Shown here: positions 2,138 through 52,252 of the stretch, piece after piece
Layout of the letters: each line of letters begins with the position of its first letter
How positions within the stretch are numbered: the first letter of the stretch is position 1
DNA from: Chrysomallon squamiferum
Taxonomy: Eukaryota > Animalia > Mollusca
Length of the DNA: 64,000 bases
Direction: 5' to 3'
Assembly: GCA_012295275.1 (NCBI GenBank)
Contig: CM022670.1
Coordinates: 20,708,001 to 20,772,000, forward strand
Translations under genes and position numbers: made by a program
The notes under the pieces: model-generated
Told to the model about the DNA's origin: nothing
What the model saw: only the letters and a program-made list of their open reading frames with translations
The model's database searches: none

Positions 2138-3196
2138 TTACTTAATAATGCGAAAATTACCATAGTAAATATATCTAAATAATTCACCAACGGTATTATT
2201 TAACGTTTTTATCATTTCAGAATTGTAATTCAGCTTTCGAAACTTAAACCAGAAATGAATAATATAGTTGTTCTTTTTCCAGTCAAACTTTTCCCCGGTA
2301 CCATAAAGTTGGTTCATTCCTTTTTTGTCATAATTAGGACGACAGATAGATGATTTTTCTGTATGAATTAAATTTCTGTATTTGATAGCTAACTGGGCTG
2401 GAAGCCGAACCGAATGTTGGTTCCAGACTTTGTCATTAAACGTTGAGTAATTCGAATGCCATATCTTCATGAAGTCAGACCAAGGTGCAGCAATGAGCAC
2501 ACCATTGCACAAACCAACGTCACTTTCGTATCCCATTACCATTTCGTATTTCAGTAAAGGATCCAAATGTTTAACAACAATCAAATCAAAATCAAATTAC
2601 ATTCCTCCAAATTCTAGCACAGCTTCCAGGCGCATGACGTCAGAGATATGTTGCGGAACTTTTACCGGTCGACCATATATTTCTGTTGGAATATTTTTCT
2701 TAATTAGATATAGCTTTTGAACCTTTCGTCGCATTTCTTTAAAATATTATCCTTTTGGAATGCAATCAATCCATAAATATGTTCTGTCAGGTTCCAAAAA
2801 TTTCTGTGCTGCTAAAAATGCTATCATGTAATGAAACAGAAAAGGTTTCTGTTCCGGTTCAAGACAGGAAAGCCAGGTGAAGTGTACCAAATTTGTAACA
2901 ACTCGTCGATCGTGTTTTACAGTTTTGTTATAATTCACTTGTGATGGTAGCATTTGTTTAAAAGTACTGTTCCTGTGGTAGATATAATATTCCACAGATT
3001 TATTTTCTTTGCATATGTTTGGTTCCAAGCATAAATAATTATTTTATAGTTTTTTTCTTACATCTTGCTTAGAATCATGGATAATCACGAATACAGTTTT
3101 CTTTAAGAAATTTTCGAAATTTTGAAGAATTTTCTTTCACGTTACCGTTTTAGTGCCGTGCTAGAGTAAAAGAAAAATAATTTTTTTGAGTTTCAT
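2138..3196 (-). pseudogene. GT32-like (DXD sugar-binding) glycosyltransferase pseudogene, copy 1
   Basis: ORFs 2747..3028 and 2138..2584 are collinear with the intact 51158..52252 protein (VHFTWL, SDVMRLEAVLEFGGM, FRYIYYG). In-frame TAA at 2747-2749 and at 2597-2599 (GGM*FDFD, just before the DXD); N-terminus frameshifted after the ATG at ~3196. Confidence 0.88.
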
Positions 3197-18038: not shown

Positions 18039-40935
<22,897 letters not shown>

Positions 40936-42181: not shown

Positions 42182-44192
42182 TGTTTAAAAAAATATAAAA
42201 TGTTGTTGTTATTTTTATGCTTTTTATTAAATAGTTAACATTTTTTAACAATCTCTTTTTAATCTCGGCAGAATTAATACAAGTCTAGATAAACGTTTTG
42301 TTGTGCCAGATGTCACCAATGTAGATGCACAGAAGATTGTTATAACTGTTGTGGAATGAAAAACCCACAAACAAACAAACAACATTGTATAATTCAACTA
42401 CTTGATTACAGAGCCAACTAAGTGTTGTCAGACTATTTATAGCACATCACTTCTTCCTGAATAATAAACAAGATTAGACCTATGTAATTATTTTTAAAAT
42501 GAAACTTTCACAATATTTTACCATCAGATGTGAGAAAAGTTCTAGGGCGAATCAGATGGAAAGTATATTTTAAAAATACTATATGAATTGCACATTTTTC
42601 TGTAAAATATATAATAAGTGGTTCATTTTGGAAAGAACACAGTGTTTGTTGATTAGAATTTCCTTCTGCAATTTTAAATTTTTATAACTTCTGATCTATA
42701 CATAACAGAATTGGTCTGTAACAAAAATAACAGAAGAGAATTTTAACATATATTTGTTTTCGAGATTCTTATTTTTCAACACTGCCATCGTCGTTATTTT
42801 TCGGTTTTGGTTCTGTCGCTACCGTTTAGAGACGGTAACGATGTTCTTTATTTTTATATATATGTGTATATACTTTTACATCTCAAATATATGCTACAAA
42901 TGTCAACAAAACTCATATCCTCGGCACTTTTCTGTTTATTTCCTATTAACTGTGATGATTTTTTCCGTTCTTTTTCAACATTTGCCATAGTGTTCGGTTA
43001 CTATTTGCACTTATTATACTCAGGCCAAAACATTTCATTTAACGGTATTTATTTATTAAATAAATAATTACACATACATTAACTTTCCCTCATAAAATGT
43101 GTTGCAGTAAGTAGTTCAACTGACGTATTTACTTTATATTCGTTTGTAAATTCCAGATAACATTATCTGTACACAAAGTTACGATAATGATTCAGAAACA
43201 AGGAATATGTTTGGAGGGTGCTTTTTATAACAGGAGTATTAAGAATATGATACGTTTTTACTTTTAACAGTTTTATTTGAATAGCATCCTGTATGAAAAT
43301 ATAATATAATTTGACTTAATATTTAACTATTAGTACAAATGGGACATTGCACCTTCCTCTAAATTGAACATAAATAATAAGTTGTTTTATAATAATTTTG
43401 ATAGTCATCTATTGTTTTATCGCATATTTTTCATTCTCATGTATTTTATATTTATATTTTTACCGTATTGAAATAAAATTTACGAATTTACTCACGTTTG
43501 GGAGAATGCCCCCCCCCCCAATATAAAATTATGCCAAAAATTTTAAAACAAATATATAAAATACTTTAATACTGTAACTTACTACATTCCACCTGTATGT
43601 ATCATTGTCTTCACCGTTAGAATCCAGTATACAATCCAGAAAAGTGCATTTCACTCCTACTCAATGCAGGAAGAAGCCGGATGACACACTTTTATTTGGT
43701 AATATTTGCTAGAGCACTTTGAACTGTGACTGTTTGTACAAGGGGAGCTGAAAACTGTACTCTTTTTATTAAGAAACCTCAATAGAAAACTGGAGGCACA
43801 TACTGTATTGTTTTATTGTTTTTATTTTAAACTCTTTATTAAATAAGACTGGATGGCAAATAAAACATGAAATACCTTGATTGTTACATAATGTAAGGTT
43901 AAGGCCATAAAACTATTTTTGACATGATAAAACTTGACAGATTTACATATGCATCATGTACAGTTATCTCGAACCAATCATCACTGCACTAGACAAAAAA
44001 AAAAAAAAAAAAAACACCCACTATTGTGTAATATTTGTGAAATGAGATACTTCAGTCTATTTTGCGTCATGTACAGTTATCTCGAACCAATCATCATTGC
44101 ACTAGATTAAAAGAAAAAAAAAGACAAACAAAAAAGCACTCACTATTGTGTAATATTTGTGAAAAGAGACGCAACTTCAGTCTGTTTTCTTT

Positions 44193-44233
44193 TATTGGTC
44201 TGAGTTATACGAGTCTGAGACGTCACGTGAGTG
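44193..44233. promoter_or_regulatory. Candidate promoter: inverted CCAAT box plus composite CRE/E-box (gacgtcacgtga)
   Basis: attggt at ~44194, GACGTCACGTGA at ~44219-44230, and duplicated ccaatca motifs at ~43975 and ~44087. Motif evidence only. Confidence 0.3.
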
Positions 44234-45533
44234 AATTAATATTTATTATTAATTAGTTAATTAATTAATTTTCTGTTGTTATTAATGGTGATGAAAATGG
44301 TGTTACTGATGGTCGTGGTTATTTGTTTAAAACTTTAGAGTTTTACTGATATAATTACATATAATTCCCAGGACCAGATCAAGAACAGAGGTTACAAATG
44401 CGACTAGAATTCTATACAATGAATATAACATTCATAAATAATAACCCTTGAATATTAGTTCATTTACGAAACAAATTTTCTATCTTTTTTATCGTAATTG
44501 GTGAGCAAACTGACAAATACTGGTCAGAGGAACTTTAAGTGAGTTGCGAAGGTTGGTATATACATTTGAGTATTTAGCACGAAGGCTCAATACTGTCCAG
44601 GCGAGGTAACCAAGTAATTATTTTTGAAAATGTAAAACTCTCATTAGTTATAACTGTAAAAAACGTGACAGAATAATATCGAAATTATTACCTGTCTTTT
44701 TGTTTGCTAATGTAATTTTAAAAACGACTTATTAATTTGTCTATTCGTTACGTTTGTGAGTAGCTCCCATCGATATTTTATTCCAAATGAGACCACAAAT
44801 CGAATACTTTTTATGGGAAATAAATAAACGTAAATCAGTGACCAGTTCTGAGTGCTGAAATATACAAACTATTCCGCATACAATAAATAGTTTTAATATT
44901 TGTTTCACAAGATTAATCATTAAATGGTATTAAACTAACTTAGTACATTTTATCTTTGTCATTAATTTCAGTAGGAATTATCGGCAGAGAAGAAAGTCTT
45001 TTTAGACAATTCTATCGAGAAAACCAAGTATCTTGATAAAGTGTGAAATTATATTTCTTTCTATCTGTTATTATATTATATTAATTATATTATATTATAT
45101 TATATTATATTATATTTGTTTATAATATATATTTAATATTGTATATCCATGTATGTACGTATGTGTTTGTGTTTGTGTGAGTCTGTGTGTGTGTGTGTGT
45201 ATATTTTTTTCAAATGATAAAGATAATACATTATGTTTCACCAACTCTTAAAAAGACATCTATCTCTAGATGTTTGTTTGTATTCACATGGAATACCCAT
45301 CCAGAGATTTTTTATTTAGTTATATATAAGATTTTATCATTTATTTTATACCTATTTGTCTAATTGGTTGCCTGACTGTATGTCAGTCTATCATATATCA
45401 TATTTATTATTTTTAGGAACAAATACAACGATTGGGTACAAGATGTCCCCCTTTCCTATAACGCTTGCGATAACAGGCGATTTTATGTGTAAGTTCGTGC
45501 TGTTTTATACAAACATGTCACATACTTATCGAA

Positions 45534-46260
45534 TTATGGTGTTATCGTCAGATTGCAGAGTAACCAAAACACGATAACTACCTGTTTATTTTTAACATCA
45601 AAATTACAAGAAAGATTATGTCGAGAATGATGTGATAATTCATTTTTACTTCTTTTCTTTCTTTCATTACTTAGGACTTTCTTGGCGTTGGTGTCAATAT
45701 ATTTATATGGTTCATTCCCACATTTGAAAAATGTATTAAAGAAATTTAAAATTTCAGTGGGTAAATCTAAAAAGTACCTATAATAACTGTATAAACATTG
45801 TGCAATCATTGGGATAAAGGTATATAAACAACGGATTAATGTAGAATATGTGTCTAGATTGTATAAAGTTGCATTACATGTGAAAACAAAATAGAGAACC
45901 AACATATATTCTAATAAAAAATGACAGATACATACATGAATAAATAATATCTTTATTAGTCCAACAATACAATCATATTTTTGCATGCACAGAAGATGTT
46001 GAATTTTTAAATTAAATGAAATAATTAGCATACACTGAAGCACAATCTATATGAAAAAATGTTTCTTTCTAATTTATTTTATTGATGACACTTCTTTCGT
46101 AACACTTATCCAGAAATGAATATAAATGATGTGAATCAGAATTAGCTATACTTTTTTTCCATATGTTTTTCTCCAGTAATTGTTTATTTGTGAGATTATC
46201 TTAAATATAATAAACATTTCGTATACTGTAAAAGATATAAGATATAGTAATAGAAGACAT
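45534..46260 (-). pseudogene. Unknown degraded ORF diverging from NS1, probably part of the viral element
   Basis: 169-aa ORF 45534..46043 plus stop-interrupted protein-like frames further upstream (SDSHHLYSFLDKCYERSVINK..., LYCWTNKDIIYSC). No recognisable domain. Confidence 0.4.
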
Positions 46261-46267
46261 ACATACA

Positions 46268-46298
<31 letters not shown>

Positions 46299-46754
46299 TC
46301 GTATCTACATATATGGATACATACATCTACTCGTATGTTTATGAGACTATAGTTTATTTACAAAATGAAAAATAATTATGTTAAGATTTATTTCAGATTA
46401 TAATAACATTTTATCTCCCTTAATTATACTGGTTGTCATCGTTACTGGAATAGCATGGCACAACAAGTACATTTTAATATTTTTAATGTTAATGTTTATT
46501 TTTGTATGAATGGATGGATGGGCAGAAATATGGATAGATAAAAGAAAAATAGTTTGTCAAAGAGAACGAATTACAGTGAGATGTTTCTAAAAGGTTGACA
46601 TTAATAACTGATATAATTGTTGTTAACAATTTTCGAATATTAAGATCTAAATTATCCCGTGTTTTTGTTTCGTTTTTTTGTTTGTTTTATAAGTATAATT
46701 GTATTTTTCTCAGACGTCTTTTTATAGATTGTATGTAGTTCATTTTTAGAGGAA

Positions 46755-48282
46755 ATGCACGTCCAGTATATATTTTCCTTCGTGGTCAAATCATAAAACT
46801 CGTGTGACGAAAACGTGCCGGTATATTCCTTAAATACCTACAATAAAATGACGAATATAAATTCATGGGGTGTAATGATATGAATTTACACGGAGACAAA
46901 AAAAAGTTGGCAAATTCCAAGGTTCTCTTGGAAATGTCATGAACGTCAAACAACCGATAGTAAATGGAAAGATAGGGCGAAGAACATCGACGATGCTCCC
47001 AAGCAACGTATTCAAACAGTTGCTGACATTCTAGTGATATGAAGAAAAACAAAAGCCTACAACGATTGCTTGATTCTGATGACGAAGGAGACGACATGAT
47101 TGCTGATGCACCTATTAAAGAGTATTCTCCTATGCAAGCTCTCTCGAGAGCTTATCGAGAAGAAAAAAAAAAGAGTTGAACAACTTTATGTTGAAGAAGA
47201 ACCACCATCTAAGAAATTGAAACCAACATTTAGAACTGAAGCAATATCAGTAAACTGTTCAAAGAATCGCGAGCTTGCAATCGCGACGAATTGTATAACT
47301 GGATAAGAACACATAAAGCTAGATCAGATAAGATTTGCTAGATGATAGCTCCTGGAATGCCACTTGGAGGTTTTACATATCTACAAGCTGAACATACTTT
47401 TGAAGATATTATGAAGAACTGCCTTGAAACAGTTCGATCGCAAGAAGACATGTCTCAGAACATAATTGAATATCCGAGACAAATTGAATTGCCAGAAAAA
47501 GATCAGTCTGGTCATCCTGTTGCTAAACCTGAAGAAAACATGATGAACTTCATTATTGGTGTAATCGTGCTGAGATTGATCCAATAACATTAGCAAGCAA
47601 AATAGTTTATATTTTAATCAAGGCATACAAAAACAAATCAACTGTTTGTTTACAGGGGCCTACAACAGTTGGCAAATCTTACTGGTTAATTAACCCGTTC
47701 ACACTGTTACCTGATCACATTACTGGAAGAGCTAGTAAAAATGAAACATTCGGATTTGAAACTTGCCCTAACAAAAACATAATTCTTATAGATCAGTGCA
47801 ACATCACGAAAAACACTGCTGAAAGATACAAAAGTATTTTACGAGGAAATGATGTTGAAGTAGAAAGAAAGAACAAACCACCTCAAGTTGGGCATAAAAC
47901 TCCAGTGATGATATGCTCCAATAGAGATCCTTGGTTCGGTTTAACATATGATGATATTGAACCACTTCTTGAACGTATATATAGAGTGCTCATAAATGAT
48001 GCCCTACGTTCTGAATTGAAAGATCATCTGTTTGGAGCTATATCACCAAATCCAAAAATGTGGGTTTTGTTTTATGATTGGCTTAATAAAAGCCAAATTG
48101 ATTTCAGTCAAATTTGTGCTCAAGACTGGGATGAACCTTTTGAATGTGAATTCGATCACCCAGCTTTCAACGGGACTATATTCCCTGCACAATATGTTCA
48201 TCTTAAAGATGATCTAACTGTCGAAGAGGTCGAAGAAGGCATAAAGTTGTCTTCCTCTGATGACGATGATGAAACAGTATGA
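46755..48282 (+). pseudogene. NS1: Parvovirus/densovirus-like NS1 (Rep) with SF3 helicase
   Basis: Open frame 47533-48282 (249 aa, no early ATG, so the track shows only 47905..48282): KSTVCLQGPTTVGKS (Walker A, 47656-47679), NETFGFETC, IILIDQ (Walker B), ERYKSILRGNDVEVERKNK (B'), TPVMICSNRDPW (motif C), LLERI (Arg finger), acidic tail. Upstream fragments (47100..47306, 47342..47587) join through frameshifts and stops. Confidence 0.88.
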
Positions 48283-49174
48283 ACGACTTAATCAATATGT
48301 GTAATAACACTTACTTATTTAAGAAATTTGTGGTACCATTTGTAAGAGTTCTGTTAGATAACTGGGTTTTTGTTGACTGGCATTGTTTACTACAGTTTAA
48401 ACATTATCAAAAACCGTATGACATAAATAATTGTAAAACATTACCAGTTGTTTATCATTTTGATTTAAATAGACTAACACAAAGCACGTATGCTACATTT
48501 ATAACTATTTTTGCACATGTTAGGAACATATAATTTTGTGAATTATCATTTGATATTAAAAAAGGTATTAAAACACATAAAGAACAAAAAAAACGATATC
48601 ATCATAACTAATAAAGATACATTACATTTATTACAGATTCTCGAAAAAGCATCAGTAGGTTTTGCACTTGATGACGTATGCAAATACGGAAAATTAATTG
48701 ATCATAGAACAGACTATCAAGCACTTGGAGCACAATATACTGATTTTAAATCACAAGCACCTTTGTCGATTTAATACACCAAGAAAATAACTAACACAAA
48801 GAAAATGGGTTTAGCAATTTTGAATCCTACTAACACTAATTTCAAAGATGAAAAACATCATACAGAAGTGCGTATCTGAAACTGTAGTGTACTTACAAAT
48901 ATTACAACATATGTATCCAGAAGAAAAAGACAACCACATGCATGTATTGCAAATATTAACAAAATGCATGGAACTATTCAATACGTACCGTGACACCAAA
49001 AGAAAGCATACGAACAAAATGATTTTATTAACATCACTCTATGATTTAGGAATACTAACTTCTGTTGTTGATTGTTATAATATTAAATGGACTTATTTTG
49101 ATAATATTTTATCATTATTTAATTTTGATGTTAAATCTATTTTTAATAAAGATACAAACAATTTGAAATTGTAA
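48279..49174 (+). pseudogene. Unknown viral-like ORF cluster downstream of NS1 (fragments 48279..48533, 48511..48774, 48848..49174)
   Basis: First ATG overlaps the NS1 stop (gtATGAac). Successive fragments overlap or abut on the same strand, as expected of one or two frameshifted genes. Confidence 0.5.
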
Positions 49175-51157
49175 TTAATAATTAAAAATATATTTTAAAT
49201 AAAAGAAAATTTATTAAATGAGTTAGATTGCAAATTATAATGAACAAATAATTTTACAGATGACAAAACGCAGTGAGATGATCAATAAGTATTATGGTAT
49301 CATTGAAAAGGAAATGAAGATCTGGGAAGATCCAAAAATGGGATATTCAATGAGAGAATTGGAATATATGTACGAATATGTTACAAGTAAAATTTAAATT
49401 TTAAACCTTATTGGTCTGAACATCAGATGCAATATCATGCAAGAGGATGCAAAGTACGACTGGAAAAAAAATCTGCTAATTGGAGAGAACGATTTTTCTT
49501 GGACCAGGATCTTCCAGAACAAGATTCTTCTCACCGACAGAAACATCATAAAATAACAGAACTGAAGAAGAACGTGCCAATCTTCTTGAAAATATTGACA
49601 TTAATTTCTATGCAAAAATAACTTACGTTTCGATATCCATCGATATGATCAATCATGTATTAATACTATTTCTTGATTATATTTGTCTTTAAATAAATAT
49701 TATTCTGTGCACGTTTAATTCGTCTATGTTGTTTATTGCATGAACACAAATTCATATATTCAAAATAGAAATAAAATAACACTAATTCATTATAGTCAAG
49801 TATCGGAAGTGTTCCCCACTCTCGGATTACACGCAGATGTTCAGTTGGTTTCCGGATCGCAGTCATCGTAAACAGTTTTCCACTGATCCGTGTTTCACAT
49901 GGATATGAGAACGGACATAACAAAAGTCAATCGGGTACGAAGAGCAAAAAGTTCATTATTTATTGAGAAAAATATCCATCACTTGTACAGTGACCTACAA
50001 TCAGTATTACGGATAAGACTGGACTGGAGCAAAAAAAAAAAAAAAAAAAAGAAGTAATAATAATGCTGTTAATGTTATTTCGCACTCTTTGCAGGTATTC
50101 TTAATACAGACATATTTGAAGAACATAAAGCTAAAGGTAATTTTATTGTTGTTATTATTATCATCATCACCATTATCTTTATCATTTTGATCCTCATTAT
50201 CGTCAGTAAATAGTAGTATTTTCAGTAGTAAAATAATTAGTAATAGTAGTAGTAGCAGTAGCAGTGTGATGATTATTATTTATATCATCTTCATCATCAT
50301 TATTATCATAATCATAATCAGTCGTAGCAACAGCAGTAAAGGTCGTAGCAGTAACAGTGTAAGTAGTAGTAGTAGCAGTTTAAGCAGTAGTAGTAGCAAT
50401 GTGATTATTATTATTTATATCATCATCATTATCGTCTTAATAATTAGTCATAGCAACAGCATTAATAGTAGCAGTAGTCTTAGCAACACAAGTAGTAGTA
50501 TTAATAGTATCAGTATCAGTTGCAGTAATACAAGCAAGAGTATAAGTATTACTAATATTATTATATTTAATTTTCAGTCACTACAGTGCACCTAAATATA
50601 AATTTAGTGAAAGTTTTCTCGTTTTGTCTTTAATTTTTCGATCTTTCTTTTTATAATTTTATACATTTTTAAATTTAAATTTATTTATTTATTTTAACTG
50701 ATTGTATAAATACTTTTTTTTATTTATTTGCCCTTCATAATTAAACGATAGGACAGAAAAATATAATAAAACGTGTAAACATCTAATATTGCGATATTGA
50801 CGAAATGTCTTCTTTTGTTTTAGTGTATTTCTGGTTTGGTTATTATTATTATTACTGCTATTACTACTACTACTAGTACTAGCACTGTAATTAGTTGTAG
50901 TAGTAGTTTTAGTAGTTATATCATCATTATCATTATCATAACTATAATCATCATCCTCACCATTATGCTTTCTGTTCCAGGTATTAATAACCTCAATTAG
51001 TTGTAGTAGTAGTTTTAGTAGTTATATCATCATTATCATTATCATAACTATAATCATCATCCTCACCATTATGCTTTCTGTTCCAGGTATTAATAACCTG
51101 ATTTTGCTAAATAAATCGACTAAACAAAATTAATATTTCAAAAAAATCTTTTTCCAG

Positions 51158-52252
51158 ATGCAAAACTGCCAATTGAAAATGAAGAAAATTCTTTTCTTGA
51201 CTGTTGTTGTCACCTCCATTTTCTTGCTGATTCTGTTTTCATCGAGGCATATTAAGGACATCAAAGTAATAAAGCAAACTATGTTTCAACCCTTAAATGT
51301 TAATGTTACCAAATCGCAGCAAGATAAAAGTGTACCTGCTAAACCTATCTCTCAGTGGTGCATGGAACAAAACATATGTAAAAAAAATGAATCGAAAACG
51401 TATTACGTTTACCACAGGAATGACACGTTTAAACGCATGTTAACTTCACCAGTGAATTATTCTAGAAATATAATCCACGAGAAAACCGTTGTTCCTAGTT
51501 TGGTTCATTTCATTTGGTTGTCTCATCTTGGACCGAAGAAAAAAATGTTTCAGTTTAAGGCTTTGGTAGCCATTTTAGCTGCACAAAGACTTATTAAACC
51601 CCAACGAATTTTTTTGTGGATTGATAGTTTTCCTGAAGGAAAATATTTTTATGAACTACTGCTAAAGGTTAAAAACCTATATCTCATTCAGAGAGAAATT
51701 CCAAAAGAAATATACGGAAGACCAGTGAATGTGTTAGAACATAAATCAGATGTTATTAGAATTGAGGCCATCTTGGAATTTGGAGGAATGTATTTTGATT
51801 TGGATTCTTTTGTTGTGAATCCTTTGGATCCTTTGCTCAAATACGAGACAGTAATGGGATATGAAACATCTAATGGTCTGGGTAGCAGTACAATCATAGC
51901 CACTCCTTGGGCAGAATTCATGAAACTGTGGCATTCGAAGTACAAGACTTTTGATGATACAAACTGGTCTGAACATGCCATATTAGTGCCTGCGAAAATA
52001 GCCCTTCAACACAAAAACTTAATTCACACTGAAGAAACCTCCCTGTGTCAACCTAACTGGAGTAAGGAAGGTCTGAATGTGCTCTATGGTACTGGGAAAA
52101 TTTACGACTGGAAGAAAAAGAATTACGTTGTACACTTGTGGTCGAAAAAGAGATCTGAAAAATATGATCCAGAAAATATCAAAGGAATGAAGAATATTGT
52201 TGGTGAAATATTCAGATATATTTATTATGGCAATGCTACGATTATTACGTAG
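51158..52252 (+). CDS. GT32-like DXD glycosyltransferase (alpha-1,4-GlcNAc/Gal transferase-like), intact, 364 aa, single coding exon
   Basis: N-terminal signal anchor (KKILFLTVVVTSIFLLILFSSR), VPSLVHFIW, HKSDVIRIEAILEFGGMYFDLD (DXD), YVVHLW. A splice acceptor tttttccag lies immediately before the ATG. Confidence 0.92.
   Translation: MQNCQLKMKKILFLTVVVTSIFLLILFSSRHIKDIKVIKQTMFQPLNVNVTKSQQDKSVPAKPISQWCMEQNICKKNESKTYYVYHRNDTFKRMLTSPVNYSRNIIHEKTVVPSLVHFIWLSHLGPKKKMFQFKALVAILAAQRLIKPQRIFLWIDSFPEGKYFYELLLKVKNLYLIQREIPKEIYGRPVNVLEHKSDVIRIEAILEFGGMYFDLDSFVVNPLDPLLKYETVMGYETSNGLGSSTIIATPWAEFMKLWHSKYKTFDDTNWSEHAILVPAKIALQHKNLIHTEETSLCQPNWSKEGLNVLYGTGKIYDWKKKNYVVHLWSKKRSEKYDPENIKGMKNIVGEIFRYIYYGNATIIT

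What the first reader, a model, noticed from the sequence alone, without database searches (positions are those of the whole stretch)
45420..49950. Endogenous NS1-bearing virus with an unfamiliar gene set and no recognisable capsid
Seen: a parvovirus-type SF3 helicase with all motifs, a divergently oriented broken gene on its left, and a train of same-strand unknown ORFs on its right extending to ~49940. I see no PLA2 motif (YLGP...HDxxY), no Gly-rich VP N-terminus and no terminal hairpins. Knowledge: the K..T.xLQGPTxxGKS and TPVxxxxN pattern recalls NS1 of invertebrate hamaparvoviruses (brevi-/penstyl-), which lack PLA2; bidnaviruses also carry a parvoviral NS1. Inference: this may be the fossil of an undescribed invertebrate DNA virus or mobile element that couples NS1 to novel genes, rather than a standard NS-VP parvovirus.
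Basis: partly seen in the sequence, partly recalled or inferred. Interest (0 to 1): 0.85.

Follow-up and report, generated by a model that had tools for sequence, protein, structure and literature searches.

The report
Decayed parvovirus fossil in invertebrate genome
An animal genome, likely a snail's, carries a broken copy of a parvovirus-type replication gene from an unnamed virus lineage, followed by decayed reading frames that match nothing known and are likely the rest of the same dead virus; such fossils are common, and nothing here shows that the virus lacked a capsid.

Summary
The NS1 is real but dead. A 249-codon frame (47533-48282) is a parvoviral SF3 helicase (Pfam 2e-17). A profile of its relatives extends NS1 back to about 46811, through stops and a frameshift. 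The first quarter of NS1, with the HUH motif, is not detectable, and Walker B has lost its catalytic acidic residue, so 'all motifs' is not right. NS1 groups (100/94) with six unnamed proteins from public assemblies. Foldseek on one of them ranks unclassified Parvoviridae far above IHHNV, so the brevi-/penstyl- link is unsupported. The stretch is in host DNA: 7 of 11 listed runs hold 0.81 or more of its words, and a contig bridges flank and NS1. The downstream frames (86, 89, 116, 76 aa) and the left frame (170 aa) are longer than shuffles give (p<=0.001) but match nothing in Pfam or PHROGs; the frames searched in PDB found nothing either. No PLA2 and no hairpins were found. Linkage of these frames to NS1 elsewhere could not be tested, and the left gene's far end looks like the antisense of a host exon. 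Verdict: an endogenous parvoviral element of an unnamed lineage. An unrecognisable capsid is as likely as a missing one.

The parts
46811..47557 (+). Broken 5' part of the NS1 remnant: end of the nuclease domain (motif III region, 46826-46900), an acidic linker whose homology cannot be traced, and the helical domain before the helicase (47246-47557). In-frame stops just before 46847 and between 47338 and 47342, further breaks in the linker, and a frameshift near 47555.
   Evidence: Profile of P0001-P0005: positions 165-453, E 4e-19; per-segment hits; hhalign probability 97.8; motif III piece above 140 of 140 control tiles
47533..48282 (+). Open frame with the SF3 helicase and C-terminus of NS1. 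Walker A and motif C are present, Walker B is degenerate, and there is no in-frame start codon before the helicase.
   Evidence: Pfam Parvo_NS1 2.1e-17; PDB AAV Rep 3.3e-8; 42% identity to P0001; motif columns
48273..48533 (+). 86-codon open frame; its ATG (48279) overlaps the NS1 stop codon. Unknown product, likely the start of the next viral gene (inferred).
   Evidence: Sequence; shuffle test; no hit in Pfam, PHROGs or NCBIfam; its frame found nothing significant in PDB
48505..48774 (+). 89-codon open frame, overlapping the previous one in another frame; unknown
   Evidence: GC by codon position 0.39/0.22/0.22; no significant hit
48824..49174 (+). 116-codon open frame; unknown. Carries an HxH motif with a weak, non-significant resemblance to the NS1 nuclease domain.
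   Evidence: hhalign E=0.18; rank 2 to 4 of 1461 segments but E 0.64-1.4; frameshift-aware tests not significant
49227..49621 (+). Two successive open frames (56 and 76 codons) in different phases, likely one decayed gene (inferred); unknown
   Evidence: no significant hit
45534..46046 (-). 170-codon open frame, hydrophobic first half, preceded by an acceptor-like T-run and AG. Membership of the element not shown.
   Evidence: 0 of 1000 shuffles; no significant hit in Pfam, PHROGs, NCBIfam, PDB or the word-indexed protein search; single-sequence model pLDDT 54, all helical, no Foldseek hit
46257..46297 (.). 4-nt microsatellite between the left frame and NS1; laid contigs of three runs break here
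45417..45489 (+).
   Evidence: Sequence; donor scan
51134..52252 (+). Host glycosyltransferase (DXD type) coding exon: the right-hand host context
   Evidence: Pfam Gly_transf_sug 1.7e-7

Best explanation
This is a broken, chromosomal copy of a parvovirus-type NS1 gene from an unnamed lineage, followed by decayed same-strand frames that are likely the rest of the same viral genome, a capsid or accessory genes that would be too diverged to recognise. Shown: NS1 homology over 46811-48282, its breaks, the degenerate Walker B, its place among host genes, its presence in several DNA runs of one organism, and the excess of long frames downstream. Inferred: a monosense ssDNA virus replicated by NS1 (HUH nicking plus SF3 unwinding, as in AAV Rep and other parvoviruses) entered a germ-line cell. 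A piece of about 2.8-3 kb (roughly 46.8-49.6 kb) that lacked or later lost the left end was joined into an intergenic site by host repair, and has decayed neutrally since. It is predicted to make no working replicase and no particles. The 170-aa frame on the left is more likely host or unrelated mobile sequence than part of the virus.
For: Pfam and PDB place the helicase with parvoviral NS1/Rep. The closest relatives are intact 589-707 aa proteins. The AF2 model of P0001 (pLDDT 77) has an ordered N-terminal domain and a helicase, and matches only parvoviral NS proteins in the top 50 BFVD rows that carry a name; two histidines of the HxH motif are nearly invariant in 25 relatives. The window's NS1 is truncated and broken and Walker B differs from 6 of 6 clade members. 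7 of 11 listed runs (organism A, 3 studies; one may be the source of the assembly) hold 0.81-0.97 of the words. A run X7 contig spans 46305-47765 with 5 other letters and 1 gap, so flank and NS1 are joined and most breaks are shared. The first downstream ATG overlaps the NS1 stop, and A-rich plus-strand composition runs from 46750 to about 49600. The 1.34 kb from the NS1 stop to 49621 is room for a VP of about 450 codons. NS homologues outnumber VP homologues 356 to 107 in a survey of animal data, with molluscs among the hosts (PMC5013282, passages). A genuine parvovirus VP could be neither clustered nor modelled (PMC13426907, passages).
Against: No downstream frame matches any solved capsid (0 hits under E=1 in 3 of 3 plus-strand frames). 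The frames are poor in Gly and Pro (G 0-5%, P 0-7%, mostly under 4%) and rich in Lys, Leu and Ile, which from recall is unlike jelly-roll capsids. An AT-rich, stop-filled gap splits them into at least two groups. No relative with context was found, so their viral origin is inferred from position and composition only. All traceable breaks in NS1 lie before 47557 while 242 helicase codons stay open, which uniform neutral decay would not favour. Real host tiles have heavier tails of long frames than shuffles do: the tile that holds the downstream frames without NS1 ranks 21st of 148.
Confidence: 0.55

Rival explanations
1. One reading: the fossil of a virus, genome segment or mobile element that couples NS1 to novel non-capsid genes, with a divergently oriented gene on the left (as a circular genome or an NS-only segment would allow).
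For: Both flanking sets of frames exceed shuffles and match nothing. Downstream composition is not capsid-like. The Logan contigs of the three nearest full-length Logan relatives are only 2850, 3243 and 3445 nt for NS1 genes of about 2.0-2.1 kb, leaving 0.7-1.5 kb. Parvoviruses with extra cassettes, circular genomes or segments are described (10.1101/2024.03.25.586562 and PMC13426907, passages).
Against: Those contigs may be incomplete. The left frame is T-rich on its coding strand while NS1 and the downstream frames are A-rich, lies beyond a microsatellite, and no laid contig among those shown bridges it to NS1. Its far end is antisense to a likely host exon. An unrecognised VP is common in divergent parvoviruses.
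Confidence: 0.15
2. Only the NS1 fragment (46.8-48.3 kb) is viral. The frames on both sides are decayed host exons or transposon remains that happen to flank it.
For: Acceptor-like T-runs ending in AG stand before 48638, 49260 and 49794 and before the left frame (sequence). Spliced host genes surround the locus (DUF4472 exon at 32849; glycosyltransferase). NS1-only integrations flanked by host DNA are described in flatworms (PMC13055364, passages). Extra contig depth and a joint at 45815-45909 hint at another copy of part of the left frame elsewhere.
Against: The first downstream ATG overlaps the NS1 stop. The frames overlap one another like a frameshifted gene, not like exons. No transposon domain scores (DDE_Tnp_1_7 only 0.046), and no copy exists elsewhere in the 64 kb.
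Confidence: 0.2
3. The insert is a permuted circle or concatemer junction: the missing 5' third of NS1 lies downstream (about 48640-49000), so part of the 'unknown train' is NS1 itself.
For: hhalign placed the 116-aa frame's HxH on the clade's HUH motif unprompted. The frame ranks 2 of 1461 segments on a 45-sequence nuclease profile. A near gap-free 108-column register with one frameshift appears in 2 of 3 end-to-end parameter sets.
Against: Nothing is significant: E=0.18, E=0.64-1.4, 10-18 of 140 control tiles and 4-22 of 200 shuffles score as high, pairwise tests sit at the null mean, and the best register moves with parameters. Far more distant true NS1 domains score 1e-24 to 1e-8 on the four-sequence starting profile, so an intact 116-codon piece should have scored clearly.
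Confidence: 0.08

Closest known systems
Endogenous parvoviral elements of invertebrates (parvovirus-related sequences; PMC5013282, passages; PMC13055364, passages)
   Same: Chromosomal NS1-derived sequence with stops and frameshifts, no termini, no recognisable VP, among host genes
   Different: Belongs to an unnamed NS1 clade (window plus six proteins, 100/94), separate from the branch holding the named bivalve NS1 genes. Keeps about 1.3 kb of unidentified decayed frames directly after NS1.
Unclassified 'Parvoviridae sp.' NS proteins A0A7D3UI69, A0A7D3UD78, A0A7D3UWE9 (BFVD)
   Same: Best full-length structural matches to the relative P0001 (E 1e-31 to 2e-29)
   Different: Only 16-19% identical; matched through P0001, not the window sequence; their genome layouts were not examined
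NS1-like genes annotated in bivalve chromosomes (Mya arenaria XP_052817762.1; Mactra antiquata KAL4217968.1, KAL4240969.1)
   Same: Mollusc chromosomal NS1 homologues among the search hits (29-31% identity over the helicase)
   Different: They form another branch and are long open frames of 652-858 aa, whereas this copy is broken
Penstyl-/brevi-type viruses (IHHNV; Penbrevirinae in PMC13426907)
   Same: Monosense layout and no PLA2 (PMC11357303, passages)
   Different: No special NS1 closeness: IHHNV at ranks 26 and 30, E about 1e-13; no match to solved capsids in PDB
Bidnaviridae
   Same: Parvovirus-type SF3 helicase
   Different: No PolB or other bidnaviral gene detected near the locus or among the 12 window frames of 130 aa or more

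Membership tests
Parvoviridae-derived endogenous element | NS1-type SF3 helicase | tested here: met
   Pfam Parvo_NS1 63 bits against PPV_E1_C 25 bits; AAV Rep best in PDB. Walker B is degenerate.
Parvoviridae-derived endogenous element | N-terminal HUH nuclease in the same gene | tested here: inconclusive
   Only the motif III end is found (46826-46900); the HUH motif is not detectable. Intact relatives have it.
Parvoviridae-derived endogenous element | Integrated in host chromosomal DNA | tested here: met
   Flanked by host genes; 7 of 11 listed runs hold 0.81 or more of the words; an X7 contig bridges flank and NS1
Parvoviridae | Single jelly-roll VP gene | tested here: inconclusive
   No Pfam or PDB match in any downstream plus-strand frame read with X at stops. 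The downstream frames were not folded. Sequence search has low power for divergent VPs (PMC13426907, passages).
Parvoviridae | Terminal hairpins | tested here: not met
   No stable hairpin or long inverted repeat at either end; loss is expected in a truncated insert
Parvovirinae / Densovirinae | PLA2 domain in VP1 | tested here: not met
   Lone FLGPG at 49495, no HDxxY on that strand; no Pfam PLA2 hit
Brevi-/penstyl-type (former Hamaparvovirinae) | NS1 clusters with these genera | tested here: inconclusive
   No named member was available for the tree. Foldseek of P0001 gives them no preference, which argues against.
Bidnaviridae | Protein-primed PolB linked to NS1 | tested here: not met
   No PolB hit in six-frame Pfam scans of 44200-46250 and 48280-49990; a gene on another segment cannot be excluded
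Novel NS1-plus-unknown-gene element | Flanking genes co-occur with NS1 in independent copies | not testable with these tools
   No host assembly held; no loci for relatives in IMG/VR, JGI metagenomes or GTDB

The most novel reading that the evidence does not exclude
The fossil records an undescribed, deep-branching lineage of mollusc parvo-like replicons whose NS1-bearing molecule (about 3 kb, as in the short contigs of its nearest relatives) carries small helical accessory genes instead of a jelly-roll capsid: an NS-only segment, a circular genome with a divergent gene, or a capsid-less element that has entered this genome at least twice.
Probability: 0.18. Interest if true: 0.6.

Novelty: new member of a known kind. 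Interest (0 to 1): 0.3.

Why it matters
As it stands it adds a host record: it ties an unnamed, well-separated NS1 clade, seen here only as unnamed proteins from public assemblies, to the germ line of one invertebrate (likely a gastropod, by earlier unverified notes), and a second copy could help date it. If the downstream and left frames proved to travel with NS1 in place of a capsid, it would be a new genome plan for parvo-like viruses or a capsid-less element, which bears on how NS1 replicons gain and lose virion genes.

Tried and rejected
Word-indexed protein searches found nothing for the helicase or the left frame. Power is low: the same helicase has 42%-identical relatives in the full HMMER search. 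Locus searches gave no context: IMG/VR, 6 of 7 scans empty; JGI metagenomes, 2 of 2 empty; GTDB empty. The seventh IMG/VR scan gave L001 and L002 for the left frame. L002's match lies antisense to a 326-aa gene that reads as a DNA ligase (label recalled) and rests on the seed octapeptide; L001 has the same range and score and was not opened; both rejected. C-terminal tails and N-terminal heads of the hits (62 and 120 pieces) match no flank. The AF2 model of the left frame is low confidence and its Foldseek result is meaningless. The ESM Atlas gave no answer. Rfam hits are microsatellite artefacts. Phage tblastn was empty. An 11-bp direct repeat at 43843 and 50013 is at chance level as a target-site duplication (41 of 100 shuffles with one mismatch allowed). 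The permuted-NS1 idea was tested several ways and not shown. No RNA holder listed. Organism B run X10 showed no long piece of flank or element, so no empty site could be read; holes in X1 and X2 over NS1 prove nothing. Third-position bias between the two NS1 copies is 8 of 16 listed differences, not significant by my hand count, and 189 rows were not shown. Five literature searches aimed at prior description listed no paper on this lineage or on a gastropod NS1 element; the library lacks most subscription journals, and no supplements were read (the table of mollusc hits in PMC5013282 could bear on novelty). Earlier scan notes held nothing on this element.
Full report
Setting. The window is AT-rich (GC 0.20-0.40) animal DNA with microsatellites, a DUF4472 exon at 32849 and a DXD glycosyltransferase at 51134-52252. 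No assembly is held. Earlier AI notes on other pieces call the host a snail, one of them a vent snail; I did not test this.

The helicase. The frame 47533-48282 (249 codons) matches Pfam Parvo_NS1 at 2.1e-17, well above papillomavirus E1, and AAV Rep40 at 3.3e-8 in PDB. A full HMMER search of 1.84 billion representatives gave 387 hits at E<=0.001, the best at 42% and 39% identity (P0001, P0002). The top ten are unnamed Logan or ENA proteins. On helicase trees the window groups with P0001-P0005 and P0013 (FastTree 0.999 on 144 rows; IQ-TREE 100/94 on 53 of those 144 rows, bootstrap not fully settled), and most closely with P0001 and P0002 (98/94). Of 30 hits looked up, three carried names, all bivalve chromosomal genes from Mya and Mactra, and these lie on another branch. 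No named parvovirus could be put in the tree. As a substitute I folded P0001 (pLDDT 77). BFVD ranks three unclassified Parvoviridae first (E 1e-31 to 2e-29, 16-19% identity) and IHHNV at ranks 26 and 30; PDB gives AAV Rep and B19V NS1. The brevi-/penstyl- affinity is therefore unsupported.

NS1 is broken. A profile of the five relatives, built without the window sequence, maps positions 165-453 to 46811-47557 (E 4e-19) and 419-610 to the helicase frame (segments; hhalign probability 97.8). There are in-frame stops just before 46847 and near 47340, further breaks in an acidic linker, and a frameshift near 47555. The first ~165 positions, with the HUH motif, are not found upstream. Walker B lacks the acidic residue present in 6 of 6 clade relatives; in SF3 helicases that residue is catalytic (recalled). 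The gene is predicted to be inactive. Against simple neutral decay, the traceable breaks all fall in the first half, while 242 helicase codons remain open.

It is chromosomal. Of 11 listed runs, 7 hold 0.81-0.97 of the sampled words (organism A, 3 studies; one may be the assembly's source), 2 hold small shares, and 2 runs of organism B hold next to none. Four runs were laid over the left flank, NS1 and the first downstream frames. An X7 contig spans 46305-47765 with 5 other letters and 1 gap, joining AT-rich flank to NS1. Contig depths there resemble those of the flanks, though the tool warns that depth is no copy number. One contig each in X1 and X2 differs at 16 listed places within 47307-47396, pointing to a second NS1 copy at roughly 85% identity elsewhere in this organism.

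The downstream frames. Plus-strand frames of 86, 89, 116 and 76 codons between 48273 and 49621 exceed 1000 of 1000 shuffles in sum; the minus strand does not. Real tiles are less kind: the tile with these frames and no NS1 ranks 21st of 148. The first ATG overlaps the NS1 stop, the frames overlap like a frameshifted gene, GC is highest at the first codon position in all four, and plus-strand A-richness continues from NS1. This favours decayed viral coding sequence (inference). Nothing identifies them: Pfam, PHROGs, NCBIfam, PDB with stops as X (37-39), phages, IMG/VR (102), and the tails of the NS1 hits (78). There is no PLA2, only a lone FLGPG, and no Gly-rich stretch; Gly and Pro are scarce. 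No hairpin is found at either end. These negatives are weak. PLA2 is confined to two subfamilies, and one genuine parvoviral VP could be neither clustered nor modelled (PMC13426907, passages). Hepan-, penstyl- and metallo-type viruses lack PLA2 (PMC11357303, passages), as do hamaviruses from bird swabs (PMC9896142, passages). The downstream frames were not folded.

A side idea, that the missing 5' third of NS1 sits downstream as in a permuted circle, arose from an HxH motif at 48935. hhalign chose that register but at E=0.18; the frame ranked 2 to 4 of 1461 segments at E 0.64-1.4; frameshift-aware alignments were matched by 10-18 of 140 tiles or sat at the null mean. The positive control, the motif III piece, beat 140 of 140 tiles. 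I leave the idea as unlikely.

The left frame. 45534-46046 on the minus strand (170 codons) beats 1000 of 1000 shuffles but has no homologue (the hits are chance). Its model is low-confidence and helical. It is T-rich on its coding strand, unlike NS1. It follows an acceptor-like site and is separated from NS1 by a microsatellite at which the contigs shown break. The supposed broken continuation to 45420 is antisense to 45417-45489, which has the splice signals of a plus-strand exon, likely the last of several short exons at 44.4-45.5 kb (sequence only). Its link to the virus is not shown.

Comparison with what is known. Parvovirus-related sequences were found in 118 animal species including six molluscs, NS homologues outnumber VP 356 to 107, and many are degraded integrations (PMC5013282, passages). 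NS1 integrations flanked by host DNA are described in flatworms (PMC13055364, passages). Expressed parvo-like elements yield piRNA-like RNAs in starfish and anemone (PMC6085071, passages). Parvoviruses with extra genes, circles or segments are described (10.1101/2024.03.25.586562, passages). PMC10433990 (passages) added nothing on molluscs. Five searches listed no account of this lineage; supplements were not read.

Verdict. An endogenous parvoviral element, dead, from an unnamed NS1 clade: a new member of a known kind. The unfamiliar gene set is partly real as sequence but unproven as biology, because co-occurrence with NS1 could not be tested. Interest 0.3; the capsid-less or segmented reading has about 0.18 probability and would merit 0.6.

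Noticed in passing
window 47307-47396: Contigs of runs X1 and X2 show a second NS1 copy, roughly 85% identical here, elsewhere in the same organism; not seen at this place in X7.
   Followed up: partly
window 44373-45489 (+): Several short exon-like pieces with splice signals, likely an unidentified host gene ending near 45460; no Pfam hit. A diverged second copy of 44526-44949 appears in runs X1, X2 and X7.
   Followed up: partly
window 47557-48282 against 46811-47557: All traceable breaks in NS1 lie in the first half; the helicase half is open for 242 codons although Walker B is degenerate. Chance or a period of selection: unexplained.
   Followed up: no
window 39800-40560 (+): One exon of the DUF4472 (CCDC78-like, name recalled) gene is tandemly repeated about six times with its flanking intron sequence (translations).
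   Followed up: no
window 2138-2596 (-) and 51134-52252 (+): Two similar glycosyltransferase-like coding stretches about 49 kb apart on opposite strands.
   Followed up: no
P0024, P0028, P0044, P0163, P0164: Long open NS1-like genes (501-858 aa) annotated as hypothetical or uncharacterized proteins on chromosomes of Mya arenaria and Mactra antiquata, at least four in Mactra: possibly recent or retained parvoviral elements in bivalves.
   Followed up: no
P0003 and P0151: Clade relatives on long ENA contigs (161 kb and 70 kb); P0003 is an intact 589-aa NS1 and would give the best gene context for this lineage.
   Followed up: no
window 43950-44188 and 50889-51099: Short tandem duplications (about 113-122 bp and 106 bp units) on either side of the locus.
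   Followed up: no
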